A stretch of 50,291 nt of DNA, from assembly GCA_965661285.1 (NCBI GenBank), contig CBFIDD010000005.1, forward strand, positions 139,191-189,481, in the 5' to 3' direction. The translations under genes were made by a program, and so were the position numbers. Shown one piece after another: positions 15,425-25,215 of this stretch (positions within the stretch are counted from its first letter, which is position 1; the number at the start of each line of letters is the position of its first letter). Source of the DNA: Poseidonia sp. GTDB taxonomy: Archaea > Thermoplasmatota > Poseidoniia > Poseidoniales > Poseidoniaceae. Under the pieces are notes generated by a model that made no database searches, was not told the origin of the DNA, and saw nothing but the letters and a program-made list of their open reading frames with translations.

Positions 15425-18400
15425 TCACTCGTTTCGTCGACCGGCCAGCATGGCTGCACCGAGCATGGCGAGGAGGGCAAAGCCGATGCCTGGAGCAGGC
15501 AACTGCACTTGCGGGTTCTCGTCAGCGTAATCGCCAGCAGGCGTCGAGAGGCGGACCGCGTTCCAACCGTCCAGCTCGAAGTCTTCATCAACGAACAACG
15601 CTGGATTTCCATCATCGTCGTACGACAACATGAGCCCAGCGATGTCGCCGTTGTCAATCTCGTCCATCGTGTAGCGTGCAAGTTCATCACCGCAGTCGCT
15701 GGGAAGCAAGTACTCGGCGTTCGAGAACATGCTCTCTGCATCGCCAAAGGTGTCGCACATGGCGAACACCACTTCGAGCGTGTCATCGTCGGCACCGATG
15801 GTCCAGTCAGCAATGCCCGTAGAAGCGAAGGTGTACATACCGTAGCCGTGGCCTTCACCAACCTCCAGTTCATCTGAGCCGTCTTCACAATCGTATCCGC
15901 CGTCGTTGACGAGAGAGAGGTCGATTTCTCCGCCGTCATCGCATACAAAGCCACTGATCTCGTAGGAGTATCCGTCGTACTCATCAGTTTCATCTTCGCA
16001 GTCAAACCAATTATCGTTCACGTAGGAGAGGACGATGGTTTCGCCACTGTAGAAGCAGGTGAAGAAGGTCGTCTCGTCGCCGTTGCTGTCGTAAGCGGGT
16101 TCGTCGCTTCCGTCTCCACAGTCCTCGTAGCCGTCGTTCACGTCGGACATTTGGATTTCAGAGCCGTCGTCGCTGCAGGTGTAGACTTCCTCTCCGTAGG
16201 TGGGCTCGTCGCTTCCGTCGCCGCAATCTTCCTCGCCATCGTTGGCGTTGGCAAACGGCACTTCCTCGCCGTCATCGCACACGAAGACCTCGCCGTCAAC
16301 AGGATGAGGTTGGCCATCAAAGATCACGGCGTAGGGGGGAGCGTGGGTGTCGAGCGAGGTGTCAACCATGAGGGCGTCGACCAGCGTTGGGTCGTACGCA
16401 CTGCTGGTCACCACGAAGTGTTCCTCCACTTCACCATCCTCGTCGTAGGAGGTTTCTTCCATCATGAGGAAGGCATGCGTGGACGCATCGAACATGGCCG
16501 TCATGACCGTACCGTCGGACAGGGTGCTGTTGAGGGCGATCATCTCCAAACCGTTCTCGTCGGTGTGCATCCACATCTGGTAGGTTTCATCCGTTGCAAG
16601 GAACTCTTCGGGGCACATCCAGCCGGTTGTATTACTCTCCCACTCGCAATCCTTCATCACTTCAAACTCCATCTCGTCCCAACTGTCGTACCATTCGGTG
16701 CTGCAGTCGTTTTCACCGTCGCGGAATTGAGAGGCACTCACGGTGCCGTCGGAACCGAAGCAGTCAACCTCGTTCAGGTCTTCAACAACCGATTCGTCCG
16801 AGCCGTCGTTGCAGTCATCGTGGCCGTCGTTGACGTAATCAAAGGGAATCTCACCGGACCCGTCGTTGCACATGAAGGTGGCTGGTTCGTCCGAACCGTC
16901 GTCGCAGTCCACCGCGCCGTCGTCAAACTGGCTCACGGTGATTTCTGAACCATCAGCGCAATAAAACACGCTTTCGTCCTCGGGCATTTCATACTCGGCC
17001 TCATCCGAGCCGTCGTCGCAGTCCACCGCGCCGTCGTTGACGTACGAAAGAGGGATGGTGTCCGAACCGTCTACGCACTCAAACGTACTGGTTTCATCGA
17101 AATATGGTTCGTCGGTGCCATCCTGACAGTCGTATTGCTGGTCGTTGACCAACGAGAGAGCAATGGCTTCTCCCGAATACTGGCACGTGTAGGTTGAGAC
17201 CTCGGAACCGGAGATGGGGTCGTAGGACGGTTCGTCGTCGGCGCCAGGGCAGTCATCAGCACCGTCGTTTACGGAGGAGAGAAGAATATCGTCACCTGAA
17301 GCGCAGGTGAACACAGAGGTTTCCTCGACCACAGGCTCGTCTTCGCCGTCTGCACAGTCATCCTCTCCATCGTTCACATGGGAGAAGGGGATGAGCGTGC
17401 CGTCGTCGCACTCAAAGTCCGTCAGTTCCTCAAGGTCGTAGGTGGGCTCGTCGGTTCCGTCTTCGCAGTCTTCATCACCGTCGTTGACCCATTCAAACTC
17501 AACGGTTTCTCCGTTTTCGCAGGTGTAGTCAACGACATAGTCCGGCTCGTCCTCTCCTTCAGAACAATCGTCGCTGCCATCGTTGAGAAGAGCGAAGCTG
17601 ATGACGGTTCCGTCCTCACACGTGTAGGTCATGGTCCCGGTTCCATCGTCTTCATCGGTTGCTCCATCACAATCCTCAATGCCGTCGTTGAGGAAGACCC
17701 ACGGCCAGGCCGTATCTTCTCCATCAACTTGACATTCGCCAGTGAAGGTATACTCTTCTTCCTCTTCGTCAATCTCCAAACCGAACCAGTTGTCCGCAGC
17801 ATCGACGAGTTCGTCGTCATGGAAGAGGCAGTCAACTTGGCCGTCGTTGACGGATGAAAGGGCAATGGTATTGAGGGGTTCATCGTTCCAGTAGTCATAA
17901 CACGTGAAGGTGCTGTTTTCATCACCGTTGGTATCGTAAGTGACTTCATCTTCACCGTTCGGGCAATCCTCCTTCCCGTCGTTCACAAGGCCAATGGACA
18001 CGAGTTCATCGTCGTCATCGTAAATGTCTCCGCTGCAGGGGAATTCAAACAACTCTTGAATCTCCCCACTTGGGTTTTCGTCCGTACCGTCGGCGCAGTC
18101 GTCAGTACCGTCGTTGACCGTCGAGAGCGGAACTTCTGAACCGTCTTCGCAGGTGTAGTTGGAGGTCTCGTAGGCGCTCATGTCGTAGACGGGTTCGTCG
18201 CTGCCGTCGCCGCAGTCATCGTAATCATCGTTGATGTAGTAATAGGGAACAGTGTTTCCGTTGGCGCAGGCGTATTCGGTGATGAAGTTGTCTTCATCCG
18301 AGCCGTCAGCGCAGTCGGCCGAACCGTCGTTCGCGAGGTAGAAGTCGATGGTCGAACCGTCGTCGCACATGAACATGCTTCCGTCGCTTTGAAGGTCGGG

Positions 18401-19549
18401 CTCGTCGCTGGCGTCAGCACAGTCTTCCGTGCCATCGTTCACTTGGGAAAGGAGCACGGTATCGCCGTTGGCGCAGGTGTAAAGATGGTACGTGTCGGTT
18501 TCACTGTCGCTGTTGTAGACCATTTCATCGTCCTCCCAGCTGGTGATGTCCGTGCAGTACCAATCCGTACCGTCGTACTCGCAATGGGACCAGCCACCGC
18601 CGTTCAAGTCCATGGCGTAATAGGCGCCGTTCACCTTGTAGTGCTCGGTGATGGGTGAACTACCGTCTTCTGGAGTAACAAAGAGTTGAACCTCCACGAA
18701 GCCGCTACCGTCATCGATGTAGGTGGCTTGGTGAAGGACATCCCCGTTCTGGTCGAGCATGGCCGTGGTCAGACTTGTCTTTTCGTTGTTCATGTCCATC
18801 ACCATGGTCGTTTCCATGACCATGTCGTCGATGGTGCCCGTGGACTGGCTTGAGATGACACCGTCAAAGGCCGTTTGCATGGCCGCTTTAGCGTCCTCGA
18901 GGGTGAAACAGGAAGCGTCGTCAACCTCGGCCGTCTCGTCGTAGTTGAAGGCGGTGGCGTCGGTGCAGCCGCCCTTGCCCTCGGTCTTGTCGGGATCTTC
19001 GGGAGCGAAGTCGTCGTCATTGGCCACGCCGTCGCCGTCCTTGTCGTCGTCAAGGGCGTCACACGTTCCGTCGCCGTCCATGTCAGCTGGAATGCTGGTG
19101 GCGTCAAGCGGGTCGGAGCCGCACTGGTTCTCAACACCGTCAGCGAACGAATCACCGTCGGCGTCCTCGTCAAAGGCGTCGCAGGTGCCATCGTCGTCGG
19201 CATCAGCAGGCACATCGGAGGCGACAACTGGGTCGCTGCCACAGGCCTCTTCGTCAATGTTGGACCAGCCGTCGCCGTCCTTGTCGCTGTCGCGGACATC
19301 GCAAACGCCATCGCCGTCAGCGTCGGCTGGCATGCTTGAGGCCAGCAGGCCGTCGGAATCGCAATTCAATTCGTCAATATCGCTCCACGAATCGCCGTCA
19401 TCATCATCATCGTCAACATCGGGGATGCCGTCCCCGTCGGTATCAAGGAGGGGCTCAACGGGCTCCTCATTATCGATCACGTCGTCGCCTCCGAGACAAC
19501 CGGAGAGGACCAACATCAAGGCAAACAGAACAGCAAGGCTACGCTTCAT
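15425..19549 (-). CDS. Large acidic surface protein: lipobox signal, TSP3-like repeats, about 20 LDL-receptor class A-like repeats, PGF-CTERM-like tail
   Basis: MKRSLAVLFALMLVLSGC start at 19549; repeated C-DG--I----VNDG--DC-DGSDE; C-terminal PAPGIGFALLAMLGAAMLAGRRNE. Confidence 0.85.
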   Translation of the reverse strand: MKRSLAVLFALMLVLSGCLGGDDVIDNEEPVEPLLDTDGDGIPDVDDDDDDGDSWSDIDELNCDSDGLLASSMPADADGDGVCDVRDSDKDGDGWSNIDEEACGSDPVVASDVPADADDDGTCDAFDEDADGDSFADGVENQCGSDPLDATSIPADMDGDGTCDALDDDKDGDGVANDDDFAPEDPDKTEGKGGCTDATAFNYDETAEVDDASCFTLEDAKAAMQTAFDGVISSQSTGTIDDMVMETTMVMDMNNEKTSLTTAMLDQNGDVLHQATYIDDGSGFVEVQLFVTPEDGSSPITEHYKVNGAYYAMDLNGGGWSHCEYDGTDWYCTDITSWEDDEMVYNSDSETDTYHLYTCANGDTVLLSQVNDGTEDCADASDEPDLQSDGSMFMCDDGSTIDFYLANDGSADCADGSDEDNFITEYACANGNTVPYYYINDDYDDCGDGSDEPVYDMSAYETSNYTCEDGSEVPLSTVNDGTDDCADGTDENPSGEIQELFEFPCSGDIYDDDDELVSIGLVNDGKEDCPNGEDEVTYDTNGDENSTFTCYDYWNDEPLNTIALSSVNDGQVDCLFHDDELVDAADNWFGLEIDEEEEEYTFTGECQVDGEDTAWPWVFLNDGIEDCDGATDEDDGTGTMTYTCEDGTVISFALLNDGSDDCSEGEDEPDYVVDYTCENGETVEFEWVNDGDEDCEDGTDEPTYDLEELTDFECDDGTLIPFSHVNDGEDDCADGEDEPVVEETSVFTCASGDDILLSSVNDGADDCPGADDEPSYDPISGSEVSTYTCQYSGEAIALSLVNDQQYDCQDGTDEPYFDETSTFECVDGSDTIPLSYVNDGAVDCDDGSDEAEYEMPEDESVFYCADGSEITVSQFDDGAVDCDDGSDEPATFMCNDGSGEIPFDYVNDGHDDCNDGSDESVVEDLNEVDCFGSDGTVSASQFRDGENDCSTEWYDSWDEMEFEVMKDCEWESNTTGWMCPEEFLATDETYQMWMHTDENGLEMIALNSTLSDGTVMTAMFDASTHAFLMMEETSYDEDGEVEEHFVVTSSAYDPTLVDALMVDTSLDTHAPPYAVIFDGQPHPVDGEVFVCDDGEEVPFANANDGEEDCGDGSDEPTYGEEVYTCSDDGSEIQMSDVNDGYEDCGDGSDEPAYDSNGDETTFFTCFYSGETIVLSYVNDNWFDCEDETDEYDGYSYEISGFVCDDGGEIDLSLVNDGGYDCEDGSDELEVGEGHGYGMYTFASTGIADWTIGADDDTLEVVFAMCDTFGDAESMFSNAEYLLPSDCGDELARYTMDEIDNGDIAGLMLSYDDDGNPALFVDEDFELDGWNAVRLSTPAGDYADENPQVQLPAPGIGFALLAMLGAAMLAGRRNE

Positions 19550-19645: not shown

Positions 19646-19652
19646 AAAAAAA
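19646..19652 (-). terminator. T7 tract, possible archaeal terminator for the tRNA-Leu(CAG) plus repeat transcript
   Basis: A7 on the + strand (T7 on -), just after a GGAGAG/CTCTCC hairpin at 19663-19680. It is the first long T-run downstream of the tRNA. Confidence 0.4.
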
Positions 19653-19692
19653 TAGCCGATGAGGAGAGAACAAGCTCTCCTTCCATACAGCA

Positions 19693-19858
19693 TCAGTTCT
19701 CATCCTGTGGATGCTTGACGATGCGGGGGGCAGGATTCTCACTCAAACGGCTTGGCAGCCGTGCAGTTCTCATCCTGCTGCTGCTTGTTGATGCGGGGGG
19801 CAGGATTCGAACCGGTGTTGGTTGTCACCAACGAGGTTCAAATCCTTTGGATTTGTAA
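19693..19858 (-). repeat. tRNA-linked tandem repeats containing copies of the tRNA-Leu 3' end
   Basis: tgcggggggcaggattc occurs at 19722, 19792 and, within the tRNA, 19859 (spacing 70 and 67). cagttctcatcctg is also repeated. Confidence 0.9.
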
Positions 19859-19942
19859 TGCGGGGGGCAGGATTCGAACCTGCGAACCGATAAGGACTGC
19901 GACCTGAACGCAGCGCCGTTGACCAAGCTGGGCGACCCCCGC
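19859..19942 (-). tRNA. tRNA-Leu (anticodon CAG)
   Basis: Reverse complement GCGGGGGTCGCCCAGCTTGGTCAACGGCG-CTGCG TTCAGGT CGCAG-...GCAGGTTCGAATCCTGCCCCCCGCA. 84 nt, long variable arm, no encoded CCA. Confidence 0.96.
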
Positions 19943-20329: not shown

Positions 20330-20428
20330 AAGAAATCTTCACGGATTTTTGTATTTGAAATGTTAGTATGTATTCTCTACGATTGAGGACGATTGGGGGT
20401 AGGTTGAGCGACGTTCAGCGTCCTTTCG

Positions 20429-21772
20429 CTAGAGCACGATTCTGAGCATCGAAAGCGCATGATATGCAAAACAAATCAGCGTGAAATACGATACAACGAG
20501 GATGCTTGTGGAGGTGCATTCTCCGGGTGATGAGAAATCATTGTTCCTGTTTCTTACGATGATGGCTGCCCAGTAAATCCAAAACACCCACATCACCGAT
20601 GCAAAGGCCATTTGGACAGGACCTATGGTGTTGAAGATTGAGGTGTTCCTCCACATTCTGTGGATGAAGATGAGGAAGAAGCCAAGACCACCCAAGCTGG
20701 CCAATCGTTTTGGATGCGGAAGGGCCCAGGGAAGAAGCAGAGAAAAAATCATCAAATGATATCCATAATGGATCTTTGAATAGAAAATGAAGATCCAAAG
20801 AATACAGAGAGTAAATGCAGGGATCATCTCAATTTTCTTCATGAGCGCAGCCACCCATGTCAGGGCAATGAATGAAACAAAAACAACGTGAAGGTAGGTG
20901 CTTGGGATGTACACGACATACTCCCCTAAAAATCTCCAAAAGGACATGCCTCGTTGGTCGATGTTTGACACCGTTTCAGATAACTGCGTTCCCGATGCGG
21001 GTTGTTTCCCGGTGAGATAAAAATTGAGAAATTGCAGAAATTCATCGGTCGCGTAGACCAAAAACGGGAGCGTTACAAGAACACCGATTCCCAAACCGAT
21101 CGTGGCGACTGCAATCCGCCCTTTCCAGGTGGTCGGGCCAAGAACAGCCAGCGGAGCACAAAGCGCAGGGAACACTTTGGTCATGGCACCAAAACCGAAC
21201 ACAGCCGATGCTTTGTACCAACTTTTTCTCATCATGAAAAGGAATGCCAGAAGAAGAAAACTGACGATGATGGCATCATCTTGCATCATGTTGACGGTCG
21301 TGTAGTGAGAATACGGTGAGACAATGAAAAATATCGACCCCGCCAAGGCAAACTTTTTTTCGTAAATAGAGAGTAGGATGTGGTACAAAATAACGGACGA
21401 CGTGAAGATAAAAAACGCAAACCAGAGCGTCCATATGAGCGGTGTGTTTCCCAAAAGAACGGCTGGAATGAACAGATAGTTGATCAGGGGAGGGGTAAGG
21501 GTCACATGATCGGTATCACGGTAAATCATGTCGCCATCGAGGATGGTTTCCGCTCGGTCCTGAAAGATGGCCAAATCTTTGTGTTCGTACCGACTACCGT
21601 CTCCATGAAGTTCGTAGGAAAGGATCAAGGGAGCTGCTATGGCAAAGGTCAACACAAAAAACAACGCGTAGATTTTTTGTTTTGATAGGACTTCCAGCTC
21701 CTCAAACCATCGGATGAATCTTGTGTTGGTTAAGTGAACAAAGCCACGCAACCTCCCCACCGAATCTGCCAT
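20429..21772 (-). CDS. Polytopic GT-C-type glycosyltransferase (GT87/DUF2029-like)
   Basis: Many TM segments; DL-IF...G--IYRD...PPL; QDDAI; GAMTKVFP. Confidence 0.7.
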   Translation of the reverse strand: MADSVGRLRGFVHLTNTRFIRWFEELEVLSKQKIYALFFVLTFAIAAPLILSYELHGDGSRYEHKDLAIFQDRAETILDGDMIYRDTDHVTLTPPLINYLFIPAVLLGNTPLIWTLWFAFFIFTSSVILYHILLSIYEKKFALAGSIFFIVSPYSHYTTVNMMQDDAIIVSFLLLAFLFMMRKSWYKASAVFGFGAMTKVFPALCAPLAVLGPTTWKGRIAVATIGLGIGVLVTLPFLVYATDEFLQFLNFYLTGKQPASGTQLSETVSNIDQRGMSFWRFLGEYVVYIPSTYLHVVFVSFIALTWVAALMKKIEMIPAFTLCILWIFIFYSKIHYGYHLMIFSLLLPWALPHPKRLASLGGLGFFLIFIHRMWRNTSIFNTIGPVQMAFASVMWVFWIYWAAIIVRNRNNDFSSPGECTSTSILVVSYFTLICFAYHALSMLRIVL

Positions 21773-21858
21773 GGCAAGGACTCAACGCTTCCCCTTAAGA
21801 GACGCGATATATAGGTTCGGTATTGAACATCTATTTTCCAATACCTCGAAAATTCCAC

Positions 21859-22797
21859 ATGGCAGAGGAATCGTTGCAACTCTCAATCATCGTTCCCGTC
21901 CTTGATGAGGAGGAGAATTTGGTACCGCTTGTTGAAGAAATAAAATCTGCTTTGGGAAAAACCGCCTATGAAGTCATCTTCATTGATGATGGTTCGACCG
22001 ATAATTCGCTTGAAATCATGATGGGTCTGAAGGAATCAGAAGGAAACGTTCGCGTCATCAAACACCGTCGGAATTTTGGCAAAGCCGTGGCCCTGAAAAC
22101 AGGTTTTGCGGCAGCAAACGGCGAAATATCCATCACCATGGATGGAGATTTGCAGGATGACCCAGCAGAAATTCCACGATTTATTGAGGAGATTGAGAAC
22201 GGGCACGACATCGTTTGTGGTTGGAGGGAAAAACGTCGCGATGACATCTTCAAACGGTGGCCATCCAAAATTTACAACCGCCTCGTACGTATGATGTGCG
22301 GGATTAAGATTCATGACATGAATTGCGGATTCAAGGCCTATGACACAGATTTGGCAACATCACTCAATCTCTATGGCGACATGCATCGATACACTCCCGT
22401 TCTCGGGAAAATGAACGGAGCGAGGATCACTGAAATCGCCATCAACCACCGACCTCGACTTCATGGAAAATCAAAATACGGGTCGAAGCGGCTTTTGCGT
22501 GGTTTTTTTGATTTGATCACCGTATCGTTCCTCATGGCGTTCCTCGAGCGACCAATGCACTTGTTTGGGAAAGTGGGAGGATTCCTATCGTCGGCCGGAC
22601 TTGCGATCTGCAGTTATCTTGTTGTCCTTAAGTATGCATACGACGAGGGCATTGGGGACCGGCCGTTGCTCTCGCTTGGCGTTTTACTGATCATCATCGG
22701 TGTCCAATTTTTCCTTCTCGGGTTGCTGGGAGAAACCATCACCTATCGTTCCAGCGAGAACAATCCGAACACGTCTTCGAGCAGCAGTGAACTTTGA
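21859..22797 (+). CDS. GT2 polyprenyl-phosphate glycosyltransferase (ArnC/DPM1-like)
   Basis: SIIVPVLDEEEN, IDDGSTD, RNFGKA, MDGDLQDDP, HDMNCGFK, two C-terminal TM helices. Confidence 0.92.
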   Translation: MAEESLQLSIIVPVLDEEENLVPLVEEIKSALGKTAYEVIFIDDGSTDNSLEIMMGLKESEGNVRVIKHRRNFGKAVALKTGFAAANGEISITMDGDLQDDPAEIPRFIEEIENGHDIVCGWREKRRDDIFKRWPSKIYNRLVRMMCGIKIHDMNCGFKAYDTDLATSLNLYGDMHRYTPVLGKMNGARITEIAINHRPRLHGKSKYGSKRLLRGFFDLITVSFLMAFLERPMHLFGKVGGFLSSAGLAICSYLVVLKYAYDEGIGDRPLLSLGVLLIIIGVQFFLLGLLGETITYRSSENNPNTSSSSSEL

Positions 22798-23730
22798 TCA
22801 CGCTTCTTCGAGTTCTTCTGGCGACATCATCGTCAAACCAAAAGCGAAGACAACAACTTCGACAACGACGTTCAATGTTCTTGAGAGAACAGCAACAAGC
22901 CCAGCTACCCCCCCACTCAAGAACAAGGACAGATTGAACGTGAACACCCCTTCTCGTGCTCCGAGACCAGCAGGCAAAAAGAACGCGAAGAAGCCAACCA
23001 ACCAAGCGATGGAGAAGGAGCCAATAAGCAACGTAAGGGAAGCGTCTTCACCGAGTCCCAAGAGAATGAATTTGTGTGCGAAGCCCCATAGAATCCATGA
23101 CAGCATCATCAGAACGAGGGCGATGCCGTAGGATGTCCTTGTCATGGAGGTTTCTTGGCTCCACTCGCCTCGCCCCAGCATTGAAAACGGTTTTCGGACA
23201 ATGACTTGCGTCAATGTCGGACTGATGATTGGGAAGAGACTGGCGAGGCCAATGGCGACCAATATCCACTTCGTTGAGGTTGGAATTCCTTCCAAATCCA
23301 GCAGGAGTAATGCTGCGATCACAGCAGATGAAACGCTGATGATGAGTTCCCAAACAAACGATTCGAGGACCACCTTGCTTCCATATTTGCGGGCAACATA
23401 GGCTCTTCCAGCAATAAGACTCACTTTCCCGGGCACATATTTTGCAATATTGGTTGTCCACCATATGCCGAAACAGAGCCGATAGGGAACGTCAGCCCCA
23501 CTCCCCAACATCAAAAATTTCCAAATAATTGGGCTCAGAACCAACACGCCAGCGATGCAGGCAACGGACAGGAAAATGATGGGCTCTGCCTCAAAAAGCG
23601 TGCCCATGACATCGATATCACTCGAATCAATTTGTTGATAGATAAACCAAAACGAAAGGATGACAACCACAACGGTGAGGAGTCTTCCAAGCACCTGCGT
23701 GAGAGGGGTGGAGCCGGTGTTCTCGTTCAT
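22798..23730 (-). CDS. Lysylphosphatidylglycerol-synthase TM region / flippase-like protein (UPF0104)
   Basis: AKYVPGKV and PAGLGAREG motifs; multiple TM helices. Confidence 0.85.
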   Translation of the reverse strand: MNENTGSTPLTQVLGRLLTVVVVILSFWFIYQQIDSSDIDVMGTLFEAEPIIFLSVACIAGVLVLSPIIWKFLMLGSGADVPYRLCFGIWWTTNIAKYVPGKVSLIAGRAYVARKYGSKVVLESFVWELIISVSSAVIAALLLLDLEGIPTSTKWILVAIGLASLFPIISPTLTQVIVRKPFSMLGRGEWSQETSMTRTSYGIALVLMMLSWILWGFAHKFILLGLGEDASLTLLIGSFSIAWLVGFFAFFLPAGLGAREGVFTFNLSLFLSGGVAGLVAVLSRTLNVVVEVVVFAFGLTMMSPEELEEA

Positions 23731-24944
23731 GAACGAACACCGTACCATCGTTTCATCGCTGTCGTCAAGGACTCCGTTGAGTATTTCTGATCAATTTCTG
23801 AACGAGCGTTTTGCACCAATTCAGTTTGGAGTTGTTCATTTCCAAGAAGCTCAACCATCGCCTTGTGCAATGCGTTGGCATCATCTTCTGGGACAAGAAG
23901 GCCGGTTTTTTGATGCGTGATGGTCTCTTTGATGCCACCGCAATCGGTACCAATCACCGGGACGCCCGCTATCATCGCCTCGAGGACAACAAGTCCTAAC
24001 CCCTCTTTCTCACCGAGCGGCGTTGTTCTTGAAGGGAGAACAAAGAGTTCTGCACGATTGTAGAACGCCTTGAGGTCTTCCCGAGGTTTGGAACCGTGAA
24101 ACTCCAGACGATGGTCCACTCCATTTTTCTCCGATAAGGTTCGCAATCCATTGAGTTCTGGGCCGTCCCCAACGATGTCAAGTTTCCATTGTTCGAAGCG
24201 TTCATCCTCAACCAACTTGCTGAATGCGTTGATCAACACATCAACCCCCTTCACTTCCATCAACCGACCAACGAAGAGGATGCGCTTTGTTCCTTTTGGG
24301 GCTGCCGTGGGTTCTTGACGGAAATCCTCGAGCCCGAAGACCATCGGTAACACAAGTTCCTGGCCGTTTGAACGGCCGTAATTCTTGTGAAGAATGGTTT
24401 GGAGTGCCTCTGAAACAACGTGGACATTGATGGCTGACTTTACGGCACCTCGTCCAAGCCATTTTGCGAGTTTCAATTTGTCGACAAGAAAAACATCGGT
24501 ACCATGCATCGAGAGATACAGATTCCTCCCTCTTCCAGCGGCCTTGTTGGTGATGTAGCCTCCAGGAATGAGCCAATGGGCGTGAACGATGTCTGGATTG
24601 AGCTCTCGAATGAGTTTTTTTGTCGCCTTTCTCCATCTCCGGAGAAAGGTAGCGAAGAGCAACGCTTTGGAGAGCGACCCTTTGACTTGCTTGTGCATAT
24701 CGCCTCGATAGGCCAGCGTTTCTCTGTGTTCTTTCGCATATCGGAATCGCCTGATTTCAACACCGTCCATTGTTTCGGCGAGGGGGAGTCCAGGAGCGTG
24801 TGGGCAGTGAACCACCACACGCGCAAATGTCGAACAAACCTTGGCCAACTCGTGCATAAACGGTGCCACGTGATCACCGATGAATCTGGGATAAACGTGC
24901 GTGTTGAACAGGATGATGGGCTTTACTTCAGCCTTTTCATCCAT
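23727..24944 (-). CDS. GT4 glycosyltransferase
   Basis: VHAHW, HGTD, LFVGRLMEVKG, EGLGLVVLEAMIAGVPVIGT. The start could alternatively be 24983. Confidence 0.92.
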   Translation of the reverse strand: MDEKAEVKPIILFNTHVYPRFIGDHVAPFMHELAKVCSTFARVVVHCPHAPGLPLAETMDGVEIRRFRYAKEHRETLAYRGDMHKQVKGSLSKALLFATFLRRWRKATKKLIRELNPDIVHAHWLIPGGYITNKAAGRGRNLYLSMHGTDVFLVDKLKLAKWLGRGAVKSAINVHVVSEALQTILHKNYGRSNGQELVLPMVFGLEDFRQEPTAAPKGTKRILFVGRLMEVKGVDVLINAFSKLVEDERFEQWKLDIVGDGPELNGLRTLSEKNGVDHRLEFHGSKPREDLKAFYNRAELFVLPSRTTPLGEKEGLGLVVLEAMIAGVPVIGTDCGGIKETITHQKTGLLVPEDDANALHKAMVELLGNEQLQTELVQNARSEIDQKYSTESLTTAMKRWYGVRS

Positions 24945-25025
24945 AGGCCGAGGCTTCGATTCATCATTTATTAGAGGTATCAATTGAGGTCATGTTTTTG
25001 GTGGGGTTTACGCCGTGGCAATCGT

Positions 25026-25131
25026 TTGGCAGCCGTGCAGTTCTCATCCTGCTGCTGCTTGATGATGCGGGGGCAGGATTCTCACTCACACGACCTTGCG
25101 GTCGTGCAGTCCGAATCCTTTTGATTCGTAA
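25026..25131 (-). repeat. Second set of tRNA-linked repeats containing a tRNA-Leu 3'-end copy
   Basis: tgcgggggcaggattc at 25066-25081. Segment 25026-25081 matches 19752-19808 apart from one substitution and one G indel. Confidence 0.9.
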
Positions 25132-25215
25132 TGCGGGGGGCAGGATTCGAACCTGCGAACCGATAAGGAATGGGACCTAAACCCACCGCCGTTGACCAAG
25201 CTGGGCGACCCCCGC
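25132..25215 (-). tRNA. tRNA-Leu (anticodon TAG)
   Basis: Same body as the tRNA at 19859, with anticodon arm GTGGG TTTAGGT CCCAT. Confidence 0.96.

What the first reader, a model, noticed from the sequence alone, without database searches (positions are those of the whole stretch)
19693..19942. Structured tRNA-3'-end repeat arrays with compensatory base changes behind both tRNA-Leu genes
Seen: on the minus strand each tRNA-Leu is followed by 66-70 nt units ending in a 16-22 nt copy of the tRNA 3' end ([GGTTC]GAATCCTGCCCCCCGCA). There are two extra copies here and one at 25066. The spacers differ in sequence but keep structure. Hairpin 1 is CAAATCC-AAA-GGATTTG here, CGAATC-AAAAG-GATTCG at the other locus (A-T to G-C covariation), and CATCC-ACA-GGATG in the last unit. 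Hairpin 2 is a 6-bp stem with a GNNA tetraloop: GTTGGT-GACA-ACCAAC, ACGGCT-GCCA-AGCCGT, ACGACC-GCAA-GGTCGT. One spacer type lacks hairpin 1. The first T7 tract lies about 210 nt downstream, so the units may be co-transcribed. Known: enterobacteria have tRNA-linked repeats (E. coli tyrT), and integrases duplicate tRNA 3' ends. Inference: covariation argues against neutral att scars. Options are an array of small RNAs cut by tRNA-processing enzymes, alternative acceptor strands that re-pair with the tRNA 5' GCGGGGG, decoy attB sites for integrating viruses, or ~50-bp non-autonomous integrative elements.
Basis: partly seen in the sequence, partly recalled or inferred. Interest (0 to 1): 0.85.

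Follow-up and report, generated by a model that had tools for sequence, protein, structure and literature searches.

The report
Archaeal tRNA-linked hairpin repeats
Behind several tRNA genes of this marine archaeon sit short tandem units, each a conserved hairpin ending in a copy of the tRNA's own tail; they resemble the poorly understood tRNA-linked repeats of E. coli and have not been described in archaea.

Summary
tRNA-Leu(CAG) is followed by two full units and one truncated unit. tRNA-Leu(TAG) is followed by one full and one truncated unit. Each full unit ends in a 16-22 nt copy of the tRNA 3' end.

The units belong to one family. It was found behind four tRNA-Leu isoacceptors in 43 genomes of Poseidoniaceae (MGIIa). 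It was not found in 199 genomes of the sister family.

Each unit has four parts:
- a leader;
- an 'anti-T-arm' box;
- a 6-bp hairpin of variable sequence (30 stem variants, strong compensatory change);
- a copy of the T-loop/T-stem, which pairs with the box, followed by the acceptor strand.

One-sided changes are almost all G-U wobbles on the tRNA-sense strand. tRNA-Val(CAC) has an unrelated unit family with the same architecture.

The acceptor copy always matches the local tRNA. It decays in about half of the terminal units, while the hairpin is kept. Unit variants are shared between different tRNA-Leu loci.

Best reading: these are archaeal counterparts of E. coli tRNA-linked repeats. They are structured modules of the tRNA 3' trailer that multiply by unequal exchange at the repeated tRNA end. 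Transcription and function remain unshown. Integration scars, a regulatory RNA and a purely mutational origin remain rivals.

The parts
19859..19942 (-). tRNA-Leu(CAG) gene; its T-arm and 3' end are the source of the repeated tail
   Evidence: ARAGORN; Rfam tRNA 47.3 bits
19792..19858 (-). Unit 1 (X type, 67 nt). Leader; anti-T-arm box (about 19835-19846); hairpin 2 (about 19817-19832); 22-nt copy of the tRNA 3' end (19792-19813), whose first 11-12 nt pair with the box
   Evidence: Sequence. Fold -26.2 kcal/mol, z -6.64. R1 covariance-model match of 70.5 bits
19722..19791 (-). Unit 2 (Y type, 70 nt). Leader; box with a purine-rich 4x4 internal loop; hairpin 2 (about 19747-19762); 17-nt copy of the tRNA 3' end (19722-19738)
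   Evidence: Sequence. Fold -24.9 kcal/mol, z -2.78. R1 covariance-model match of 84.2 bits, the best in the set
19694..19721 (-). Truncated third unit (leader plus box 1 only; no hairpin 2, no tail)
   Evidence: 89% identical over 45 nt to the start of unit 2 plus the preceding tail (repeat finder D3)
19646..19680 (-). Short G+C-rich hairpin (about 19663-19680) followed by the first run of seven T (19646-19652); likely end of the tRNA-Leu(CAG) transcription unit (inferred)
   Evidence: Sequence and fold. The consensus terminator scan did not flag it, because 10 nt separate the stem from the T run
25132..25215 (-). tRNA-Leu(TAG) gene
   Evidence: ARAGORN; Rfam tRNA 48.5 bits
25066..25131 (-). 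Unit behind tRNA-Leu(TAG) (mixed X/Y type, 66 nt); 16-nt tail copy at 25066-25081 with one C fewer than the tRNA
   Evidence: Sequence. Fold -27.7 kcal/mol, z -4.96. R1 covariance-model match of 66.8 bits
25027..25065 (-). Truncated unit (leader, box 1 and the 5' half plus loop of hairpin 2); it ends where the low-GC island begins
   Evidence: Near-identical to the start of unit 2 of the CAG locus (repeat finder D1; blastn)
20330..25026 (.). Context: a 4.7-kb low-GC island with GT87, GT2, LPG_synthase_TM-like and GT4 genes. It lies between the Leu(TAG) array and the SMR gene. In relatives the two tRNA-Leu genes are 120-550 nt apart
   Evidence: GC 0.44-0.51 against 0.57-0.65 in the flanks. Pfam hits. 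Relatives' loci

Best explanation
These are archaeal counterparts of the tRNA-linked repeats (TLRs) of E. coli: short modules in the 3' trailer of certain tRNA genes.

Each module is a hairpin of about 50 nt. An upstream 'anti-T-arm' box pairs with a copy of the tRNA's T-loop and T-stem 3' strand. A small hairpin of variable sequence caps the structure. A copy of the acceptor 3' strand trails behind it.

How the arrays change (inferred):
- The 3' arm of the hairpin is homologous to the real end of the tRNA gene. Unequal exchange or replication slippage between the real end and the copy adds or removes whole units.
- This explains tandem arrays of 0-3 units, identical neighbouring units, and an acceptor copy that always matches the local tRNA.
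- It also explains why the oldest, distal unit decays.
- All four tRNA-Leu isoacceptors share the same T-arm. Exchange among them moves unit variants between loci.

What is selected (inferred): the units lie between the tRNA and its oligo-T terminator, so they are probably transcribed as part of the precursor. The pattern of change shows that pairing is maintained on the sense strand, most simply in RNA.

Most likely role (inferred): a stable, self-contained trailer hairpin that locks up the extra copy of the tRNA end. The copy then cannot compete with the genuine 3' strand while the precursor folds and is processed.

Status of each step:
- Shown: anatomy, conservation, covariation, strand bias, distribution, tail matching, inter-locus sharing.
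- Inferred: transcription, the duplication mechanism and the role.
For: Family and distribution:
- The R1 covariance model (built from the 32-unit alignment A1) matches 64 units (58 distinct) in 45 of the 47 loci given to it. These come from 43 genomes, including 29 of the 60 genomes of the genus.
- All 5 matches in the window's own genome lie behind tRNA-Leu genes. blastn finds no other copy.
- Units occur behind tRNA-Leu CAG, TAG, CAA and GAG.

Structure:
- 80.3% of cells are paired against 68.6% in shuffles (0 of 500 shuffles reach it) and against 25-46% with slid partners.
- Hairpin 2 is 92.7% paired, with both-sided changes in 6 of 6 pairs.
- There are 30 stem variants: 16 with 6 of 6 pairs, 13 with 5 of 6.
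- In relatives the stem can be 8 bp or more than 10 bp long while the flanking boxes are kept.

Strand:
- G-U/U-G cells number 52 against 7 A-C/C-A, leaving out one register-shifted pair. In hairpin 2 the counts are 17 against 2.
- Folding z-scores are better on the sense strand for all three window units.

Second family with the same architecture, tRNA-Val(CAC):
- 95-nt units. The box pairs with the tail's T-arm over 14 pairs, 95% paired. One-sided changes give 19 G-U/U-G cells.
- The inner helix of 9 pairs is 98% paired, with 3 compensatory pairs.
- The tRNA-Ala(GGC) unit also folds with an anti-tail strand.

Genome-wide:
- 6 of 44 tRNAs have a copy of their 14-nt tail (at most 1 mismatch) within 600 nt downstream. 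None of 44 has one upstream, and none of 44 has a copy of its 5' end.
- Leu(TAG) adds a seventh case, with a deletion in the copy.

Duplication model:
- The tail equals the local tRNA end even where that end is unusual (L051, L057, and the CAA and GAG loci).
- Neighbouring units are identical in several genomes (for example 3 copies in G143).
- Internal units keep the acceptor copy in 14 of 15 cases. Last units keep it in 18 of 43. About 12 of the 13 model pairs are kept in both classes.

Inter-locus sharing:
- Own CAG unit 2 is closest to CAA units of other genomes (0.84-0.88 identity).
- The own CAA unit is closest to own CAG unit 2 (0.84), ahead of other CAA units (0.76-0.80).
- The TAG and CAG units of G043 are each other's closest (0.92).

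Trailer position:
- No T run lies between the tRNA and the T7 at 19646-19652.
- CAA loci of relatives have T5-T7 runs about 25 nt after the last tail.
- TAG genes without units have a T5 run about 15 nt after the tRNA.

One family, not recurrent scars: in 401 genomes of the order, every convincing tail duplication behind tRNA-Leu carries this module. Counts are 28 of 199 in the family plus the own genome, 0 of 2 and 1 chance-like hit of 199 in the other families, and 0 control hits.

Precedent: E. coli TLRs have the same defining layout (PMC8144298, passages read).
Against: - Transcription of the units is not shown. Only assembled contigs of RNA libraries were available, and they mostly cover the tRNA itself.
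- The distribution is patchy: about half of the genus, copy number 0-3. Any role is therefore dispensable.
- In Y-type units, four pairs of the outer stem are replaced together by purine-purine oppositions. The two boxes then read better as direct repeats. This fits a protein-binding or DNA-level reading as well as an RNA one.
- The G-U bias would also arise in a single-stranded DNA hairpin on the non-template strand.
- Units in the alignment are related by descent. Cell counts therefore overstate the number of independent events.
- At tRNA-Glu(CTC), copies of the tRNA end bound kb-sized low-GC cassettes. Site-specific integration at tRNA ends does occur in this lineage and could have seeded the short units.
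- The insulating role is my inference. No experiment or computation here tests it.
Confidence: 0.45

Rival explanations
1. DNA-level recombination sites. The units are footprints or miniature cassettes of site-specific recombination at the tRNA T-loop. The recombinase would be supplied in trans by a virus or plasmid, or would be the resident Xer-type enzyme. The hairpin would be a folded single-strand site, comparable to integron attC or to the folded attP of phages that use Xer.
For: - Copied tails start in or at the T-loop, a known crossover position for tRNA-targeting integrases (recalled knowledge).
- At tRNA-Glu(CTC), five copies of the 13-nt tail bound two 56-nt units and two cassettes of 1.6 and 0.9 kb with GC 0.41-0.42. 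Similar arrays occur in relatives.
- A low-GC glycosyltransferase island abuts the truncated unit behind tRNA-Leu(TAG).
- Structure conserved with variable sequence is also the hallmark of attC sites (recalled).
- Unit variants move between tRNA-Leu loci.
Against: - Of the 57 genus genomes with a tyrosine-recombinase match, 54 have exactly one, and it is the same conserved gene. The own genome has one.
- The own genome has no Y1 transposase, no TnpB and no reverse transcriptase.
- No virus contig in IMG/VR carries the units. The 5 hits of two scans are unrelated or lie in a coding region.
- No kb-sized insert bounded by tRNA-Leu or tRNA-Val tails was seen in the loci examined.
- Arrays end at variable points inside the last unit, not at a fixed crossover.
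- The island behind Leu(TAG) has no second tail at its far end.
- 67-95 bp is too short to excise as a double-stranded circle (general knowledge).
- The wobble bias is specific to the sense strand.
Confidence: 0.15
2. A regulatory or trans-acting RNA. The units would be released from the precursor as stable small RNAs. Alternatively they act in cis as a switch, in which the anti-T-arm box pairs with an upstream T-loop-like leader segment, with the downstream tail copy, or with the genuine T-arm. Either way they would control maturation or the level of tRNA-Leu.
For: - In X-type units two mutually exclusive helices are both conserved: 84 of 98 and 138 of 154 cells paired.
- There is sense-strand wobble bias and covariation.
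- The internal-loop sequence of Y-type units is conserved, which suggests a binding site.
- E. coli TLRs behind 5S rRNA are processed and bind Hfq and CsrA (PMC8144298, abstract and passages).
Against: - No discrete RNA ends could be observed, because only contigs were available.
- A unit lacks the 5' acceptor strand that RNase Z or RNase P substrates need (sequence).
- The acceptor copy is not conserved in terminal units.
- The patchy presence argues against a core regulatory role.
- No Rfam family matches.
Confidence: 0.2
3. A mutational by-product without function. Slippage at the repeated tRNA end makes the arrays. Template switching within quasi-palindromes creates and keeps the inverted repeats, which would mimic compensatory evolution.
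For: - Presence is patchy, copy number varies and neighbouring copies are identical.
- The boxes are made of T-arm sequence and its complement.
- Template switching is reported to create hairpins and paired changes (recalled literature, not read here).
Against: - Stem length, loop size and flanking boxes are kept across at least four genera and four tRNA-Leu loci.
- The many G-U intermediates on one strand only are not expected from a strand-symmetric DNA process.
- The hairpin is retained after the adjoining acceptor copy has decayed.
Confidence: 0.15

Closest known systems
tRNA-linked repeats (TLRs) of Escherichia coli (tyrT rtT; rrA/rrB/rrF), as described in PMC8144298
   Same: They lie immediately downstream of a tRNA (or rRNA) gene, in tandem (1-5 per locus) and at several loci per genome. 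Each ends in a copy of the 3' end of the upstream gene: 18-19 bp in E. coli, 16-26 nt here. Function is largely unknown.
   Different: - There is no sequence or Rfam similarity.
- The host is an archaeon, and the units are shorter (56-95 nt).
- Here the copied end is the 3' arm of a conserved hairpin with an anti-T-arm strand and a covarying cap. I did not check whether the E. coli units share that feature.
- Transcription and processing are shown for some E. coli TLRs, not here.
Displaced tRNA-gene fragments (att repeats) that mark genomic islands and proviruses integrated in tRNA genes (Islander concept, PMC4383910, abstract seen in a listing)
   Same: A direct repeat of the tRNA 3' part lies downstream of an intact tRNA gene. 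The tail copy begins in or near the T-loop. Low-GC islands lie next to two of the loci.
   Different: The spacers are 40-70 nt, homologous to each other and structured. There is no integrase. No second repeat lies at the far end of the island. The distal junction is variable.
Integron attC sites
   Same: Imperfect inverted repeats of 57-141 nt whose structure, not sequence, is conserved (recalled). They occur serially in arrays anchored at one fixed site.
   Different: There is no IntI-type integrase. The Leu and Val units carry no cargo genes. The wobble bias suggests RNA. No test of strand-specific extrahelical bases was made.
Functional tRNA 3' trailers such as 3'ETS-leuZ of E. coli (mentioned in PMC8144298)
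   Same: An RNA segment transcribed behind a tRNA-Leu gene, which could have a role of its own after processing.
   Different: No target or partner is known here. The architecture (a copy of the tRNA end plus its complement) is different.

Membership tests
tRNA-linked repeats (E. coli type) | Located directly downstream of a tRNA or rRNA gene, on the same strand | tested here: met
   All 5 own-genome matches, and all matches in relatives whose contig includes the tRNA, start at the tRNA 3' end or at the previous unit
tRNA-linked repeats (E. coli type) | The 3' end of each unit is identical to the 3' end of the upstream gene (18-19 bp in E. coli) | tested here: met
   22, 17 and 16 nt in the window. 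24-26 nt for tRNA-Val. The tail follows local tRNA variants
tRNA-linked repeats (E. coli type) | One to several tandem copies per locus, at several loci per genome | tested here: met
   0-3 copies per locus. 7 of 44 tRNA genes of this genome have a nearby tail copy
tRNA-linked repeats (E. coli type) | Transcribed with the upstream gene and processed | tested here: inconclusive
   The position before the oligo-T runs suggests it. RNA-library contigs reach only 17 nt into the trailer, and one contig covers a unit tail plus flank of a relative
tRNA-linked repeats (E. coli type) | Sequence homology to the E. coli units (Rfam RtT) | tested here: not met
   Rfam finds only tRNA at these loci. The resemblance is one of layout, not of descent
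tRNA-integrated genomic island or provirus (att repeats) | An integrase gene inside the element | tested here: not met
   There is no integrase between or next to the repeats. One tyrosine recombinase per genome in 54 of the 57 genus genomes with a match
tRNA-integrated genomic island or provirus (att repeats) | Island-sized DNA bounded by the intact tRNA gene and a displaced tRNA fragment | tested here: not met
   Leu and Val spacers are 40-70 nt. The 4.7-kb island behind Leu(TAG) has no distal tail copy. This feature is met only at tRNA-Glu(CTC), a different locus
Integron (attI/attC cassette array) | An IntI integrase with an adjacent attI and promoter | tested here: not met
   Only one conserved tyrosine-recombinase gene, elsewhere in the genome
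Integron (attI/attC cassette array) | Folded imperfect palindromes with conserved structure and variable sequence | tested here: met
   This is a resemblance in form only
MITE / REP-type dispersed palindromic elements | Many dispersed copies, with terminal inverted repeats and short target duplications | tested here: not met
   Copies occur only behind tRNA-Leu genes in the own genome. No Y1 transposase or TnpB
Any curated RNA family (Rfam 15) | A match at or above the gathering score | tested here: not met
   only tRNA

The most novel reading that the evidence does not exclude
The hairpin units are folded single-strand recombination sites of a cassette system anchored on tRNA genes. In this system the tRNA 3' end plays the part of an integron's attI, and the anti-T-arm/T-arm hairpin the part of attC. 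The same process would build the kb-sized low-GC cassette arrays seen behind tRNA-Glu(CTC) and seed the flexible islands next to tRNA-Leu. It would be driven by a recombinase that is not an IntI: either the single resident Xer-type enzyme or one brought by viruses.
Probability: 0.08. Interest if true: 0.85.

Novelty: new variant of a known kind. Interest (0 to 1): 0.6.

Why it matters
Poseidoniaceae (Marine Group IIa) are among the most abundant archaea of the surface ocean and are uncultured. Almost nothing is known about their non-coding RNA or about how their tRNA genes evolve.

A conserved, covarying module that always carries a copy of the neighbouring tRNA's end is a concrete candidate for three things:
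- a new class of archaeal trailer RNA;
- an archaeal parallel to the E. coli tRNA-linked repeats, whose function has been open since 1978;
- a window on how tRNA gene ends act as hot spots of recombination next to flexible islands.

The covariance model and alignments made here make the question testable in metatranscriptomes and in vitro.

Tried and rejected
- Rfam: nothing but tRNA at the Leu, Val, Ala and relatives' loci.

- RNA evidence: only Logan contigs were on offer. I laid X2, X3, X4 (RNA libraries) and X19 (the best holder).
  - RNA-library contigs cover the tRNA heavily.
  - Two contigs reach 17 nt into the trailer: X4 record 27 and X2 record 10, each with 3 other letters, so from relatives.
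  - One 138-nt contig (X4 record 26) covers a unit tail, and its loose end resembles the CAA-locus flank of relatives.
  - This is a weak hint at most. It gives no ends, no strand and no proof of transcription. Parts without cover mean nothing.

- Viruses: two scans of IMG/VR with tail motifs gave 1 and 4 stretches. These were a 69%-GC contig, two identical unrelated contigs, a 66%-GC coding region, and a repeat inside a caudovirus prohead-protease gene. None is relevant.

- Mobilising enzymes in the own genome (93% complete): no Y1 transposase, no TnpB-type domain, no reverse transcriptase.

- Recalled motifs compared by eye with the conserved internal loop of Y-type units, none fitting: C/D-box and K-turn, hammerhead core, and the bulge-helix-bulge splice motif. 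I tested these with no tool, so the rejection is weak.

- CRISPR-like array: rejected, because the 'spacers' are homologous to each other.

- Reading the tail copy as a spare acceptor strand: minimum-free-energy folding of the whole precursor pairs the tRNA 5' end with the last tail. This is an energy artefact of enclosing everything in one multiloop, and the acceptor copy is not conserved.

- The genome-wide search for 13-nt tails at any distance was too noisy to use.

- The consensus terminator scan did not flag the hairpin plus T7 behind the array.

- The 25.8-25.9-bit model hits in genera g4 and g12 coincide with tRNA-Leu(CAA) genes themselves (L067, L068). I discount them.

- My parser mis-scored at least three tRNA-Leu(GAG) loci (L062, L065, L066) as decayed. 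It also dropped 6 units whose tRNA lies beyond a contig end.

Supplementary files of papers were not consulted.
Full report
**1. What is in the window**

ARAGORN and Rfam place tRNA-Leu(CAG) at 19859-19942 and tRNA-Leu(TAG) at 25132-25215, both on the minus strand.

Read on that strand, tRNA-Leu(CAG) is followed by:
- a 67-nt unit whose last 22 nt repeat the tRNA 3' end (19792-19858);
- a 70-nt unit whose last 17 nt repeat it (19722-19791);
- 28 nt that repeat the beginning of a unit and then diverge (19694-19721).

A short G+C-rich hairpin and the first run of seven T follow at 19646-19680.

tRNA-Leu(TAG) is followed by a 66-nt unit. Its 16-nt tail copy lacks one C (25066-25131). Then comes a unit that breaks off in the loop of its second hairpin (25027-25065).

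The 17-nt tail motif occurs four times exactly in the window against 0.03 expected. The three full units fold far better than shuffles on the tRNA-sense strand (z -6.6, -2.8, -5.0). They fold less well on the other strand (z -3.1, -1.8, -3.6).

**2. It is a genome-wide habit, not a peculiarity of two genes**

The window lies in an 8-contig, 1.98-Mb genome with 44 tRNA genes.

I looked for copies of each tRNA's last 14 nt, allowing at most one mismatch, within 600 nt:
- 6 of 44 tRNAs have a copy downstream: Leu-CAA, Leu-CAG, Leu-TAA, Glu-CTC, Ala-GGC, Val-CAC;
- 0 of 44 have one upstream;
- 0 of 44 have a copy of their 5' end on either side.

Leu-TAG is a seventh case, missed only because of its one-base deletion. 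Leu-GAG carries a degenerate 45-nt copy of its 3' half.

tRNA-Leu(CAA), on another contig, is followed by two units of the same family as unit 2 of the window. Their tails match the CAA acceptor rather than the CAG one. blastn and the covariance model find this family nowhere else in the genome.

**3. The family in relatives**

A DNA search of the 60 genomes of the genus, followed by model searches of the family and the order, brought in the homologous loci.

The R1 covariance model was built from the 32 aligned units of alignment A1. Run over 47 of these loci, it matches 64 units (58 distinct) in 45 loci from 43 genomes. Of these genomes, 29 belong to the window's genus and 14 to three other genera of the same family.

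Taxonomy and spread:
- Record titles of a pattern scan name these organisms Candidatus Poseidoniaceae, Poseidonia sp. or Poseidoniales, including the early MG-II assembly CM001443.1.
- 29 of the 57 stretches found carry such archaeal labels. The rest are mostly bacterial and have scattered gap lengths; their number is roughly what I estimate for chance (the estimate is mine).
- At E <= 1e-4 the model matches 20 of 74 genomes of the family, 0 of 2 of a second family and 0 of 74 of the third.
- An exact pattern for 'tail, 45-75 nt, tail' gives 28 of 199 genomes plus the own one in the family. The other families give 0 of 2 and 1 chance-like hit of 199. The reversed control pattern gives none.

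Every convincing hit of that pattern carries the same module. These are therefore not recurrent independent scars with unrelated fillers.

Units occur behind four isoacceptors (CAG, TAG, CAA, GAG), in 0 to 3 copies.

**4. Anatomy**

A unit consists of:
- (i) a 10-16-nt leader;
- (ii) box 1, which in the X type is the near-perfect complement of the T-loop and T-stem 3' strand;
- (iii) hairpin 2, a 6-bp stem with a four-base loop that mostly begins with G and ends with A;
- (iv) box 2, the copy of the T-loop/T-stem, which runs on into the copy of the acceptor strand.

RNAalifold and minimum-free-energy folds pair box 1 with box 2, so the unit is one long hairpin capped by hairpin 2.

In the Y type, four of the eleven outer pairs are replaced on both strands together by purines. 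This leaves a symmetric purine-rich internal loop. The two boxes can then also be read as direct repeats.

It excludes the box 1/box 2 helix, which has 138 of 154 cells paired.

In tRNA-Leu(GAG) loci and in one other genus, hairpin 2 is 8 bp or more than 10 bp long, while the boxes are kept.

**5. Is the structure selected, and on which strand?**

On the 32-unit alignment:
- 80.3% of cells pair, against 68.6% after shuffling (0 of 500 shuffles reach it) and 25-46% with slid partners;
- hairpin 2 is 92.7% paired, and all six pairs show changes on both sides.

Among the 64 matches there are 30 different stem sequences. Of these, 16 have 6 of 6 pairs and 13 have 5 of 6.

Non-Watson-Crick cells are overwhelmingly G-U. 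There are 52 G-U/U-G against 7 A-C/C-A once one register-shifted pair is set aside. In hairpin 2 alone the counts are 17 against 2. On the opposite strand these would be mismatches. The pairing is therefore maintained on the tRNA-sense strand, most simply in RNA.

Two cautions apply:
- the units are related by descent, so cells are not independent events;
- a hairpin in the single-stranded non-template DNA would show the same bias.

**6. An independent second family with the same plan**

tRNA-Val(CAC) of this genome is followed by two 95-nt units and a decayed third. Homologous units occur in at least 18 other genomes of the genus. They share no sequence with the Leu units, but the plan is the same:
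- a leader;
- a box complementary to the Val T-arm (14 pairs, 95% of cells paired; the one-sided changes give 19 G-U/U-G cells);
- an inner helix of 9 pairs (98% paired, 3 pairs with compensatory change);
- the T-arm and acceptor copy.

The single unit behind tRNA-Ala(GGC) also folds with a strand complementary to its tail copy.

The pairing of an upstream complement with the copied tRNA end is thus the common denominator. The complement differs according to the tRNA.

**7. How the arrays change**

The tail copy equals the end of the local tRNA, even where that end is unusual (loci L051 and L057; the CAA and GAG loci). Neighbouring units are often identical, for example three copies in G143 and two in G128.

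Acceptor copy against hairpin:
- Units followed by another unit keep the 8-nt acceptor copy intact in 14 of 15 cases.
- The last unit of an array keeps it in 18 of 43.
- My script scored 25 of 43 as decayed. At least three of these are parser errors, so the true figure is about half.
- Both classes keep about 12 of the 13 modelled pairs.
- Six units without an assignable tRNA were dropped.

The hairpin, not the acceptor copy, is therefore what is conserved. Arrays end at different points inside the last unit: after box 1, in the loop of hairpin 2, or before box 2. This speaks against a fixed distal crossover site.

Unit variants do not follow loci:
- unit 2 of the CAG locus is closest to CAA units of other genomes (0.84-0.88 identity over the spacer);
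- the own CAA unit is closer to it (0.84) than to other CAA units (0.76-0.80);
- the TAG unit is closest to a CAG unit of G033 (0.88);
- the TAG and CAG units of G043 are each other's nearest (0.92).

All of this fits unequal exchange or slippage between the real tRNA end and the homologous 3' arm of the hairpin, together with gene conversion among the tRNA-Leu genes, which share one T-arm. This mechanism is inferred.

**8. Transcription**

The units lie between the tRNA and the first oligo-T run, which is the archaeal termination signal (established knowledge):
- here the T7 lies 207 nt downstream;
- at CAA loci of relatives, T5-T7 runs lie about 25 nt after the last tail;
- behind TAG genes without units, a T5 run lies about 15 nt after the tRNA.

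Direct evidence is lacking. Only assembled contigs of RNA libraries could be laid, and they show the tRNA and little more.

**9. Integration as an alternative**

Against it:
- The own genome has a single tyrosine-recombinase gene.
- In the genus, 54 of the 57 genomes with a match have exactly one, and it is the same conserved gene.
- No Y1 transposase, TnpB or reverse transcriptase was found.
- No relevant virus contig carries the motifs.
- The 4.7-kb low-GC glycosyltransferase island separates the two tRNA-Leu genes here; they are 120-550 nt apart in relatives. It starts inside a truncated unit and has no tail copy at its far end.

For it:
- tRNA-Glu(CTC) shows that integration-like events do happen. 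Five copies of its 13-nt tail bound two identical 56-nt units and two cassettes of 1.6 and 0.9 kb with GC 0.41-0.42. Relatives have similar arrays.

I therefore keep a DNA-level origin as a rival and as the most novel reading.

**10. Comparison with what is known**

The closest described thing is the family of tRNA-linked repeats of E. coli:
- 22 units at ten loci, one to five per locus;
- each ends in 18-19 bp identical to the end of the upstream tRNA or rRNA gene;
- the tRNA-linked ones have no known function, while the three behind 5S rRNA are processed and bind Hfq and CsrA (PMC8144298, abstract and passages read).

The layout criteria are met here. Homology is not.

In the library searched, the phrase 'tRNA-linked repeat(s)' occurs in two papers only, both on bacteria. 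A search on Poseidoniales, tRNA, integrase and genomic island gave nothing on this subject. I therefore know of no description in archaea. Subscription journals and supplements were not searchable.

**11. Verdict**

The finding is real and larger than reported. It is a structured family of tRNA-linked repeats in Poseidoniaceae, with a parallel family at tRNA-Val.

I rate it a new variant of a known kind. Interest is moderate to high, because the structure is clearly maintained, the organisms matter ecologically, and the function of such repeats is an old open question.

My best explanation is a co-transcribed trailer hairpin that multiplies by unequal exchange and sequesters the extra tRNA end. 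I give it about 0.45.

Noticed in passing
G000:C2:228637-231331 (locus L144:138-2832): tRNA-Glu(CTC) is followed by five copies of its 13-nt tail. They bound two identical 56-nt units and two cassettes: 1.6 kb (short-chain dehydrogenase-like ORF on the opposite strand) and 0.9 kb (hypothetical ORF), with GC 0.41-0.42. A further paralogous cassette follows. Relatives (G028, G013, G044, G053 and others) have similar arrays. It looks like serial site-specific insertion without a resident integrase.
   Followed up: partly
window 20330-25026: A 4.7-kb low-GC island (0.44-0.51 against 0.57-0.65) with GT87, GT2, LPG_synthase_TM-like and GT4 genes. It is inserted between the tRNA-Leu(TAG) array and the SMR transporter gene. 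In relatives the two tRNA-Leu genes are adjacent, or separated only by the SMR gene.
   Followed up: partly
G000:C6:117270-117612 (L143, L148): tRNA-Val(CAC) has two 95-nt units and a decayed third. The family is conserved in the genus, with its own anti-T-arm box and covarying inner helix.
   Followed up: yes
G000:C2:448100-448270 (L145) and G000:C4:120134-120320 (L147): tRNA-Ala(GGC) is followed by a strongly folding unit (-37 kcal/mol) in which a strand complementary to the tail copy precedes it. tRNA-Leu(GAG) is followed by a degenerate 45-nt copy of its own 3' half plus a repeat of the first 20 nt of its trailer.
   Followed up: no
relatives' contigs, e.g. G003:C36:5-92, G016:C19:33-149, G033:C30:1-74, G044:C6:1-23: Contigs of many draft genomes begin or end inside these arrays. 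The repeats break short-read assemblies, so copy numbers in MAGs are probably underestimates.
   Followed up: no
G000:C1:313805-313897: ARAGORN reports an odd 93-nt 'tRNA-???' with a two-base anticodon. It may be an intron-containing or otherwise unusual tRNA gene.
   Followed up: no
window 15425-19548 (-): A very large secreted or lipoprotein-like protein with LDL-receptor class A repeats lies directly downstream of the array. Its listed ORF start at 19693 is an artefact that reaches into the truncated unit. A signal-peptide-like start lies near 19548.
   Followed up: no
L071:3751-3830 (IMG/VR contig): Two copies of a tRNA-Leu-like 13-nt tail lie about 70 nt apart in a 40%-GC caudovirus contig. 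They lie inside the prohead protease gene on the opposite strand. I judged this to be chance.
   Followed up: yes
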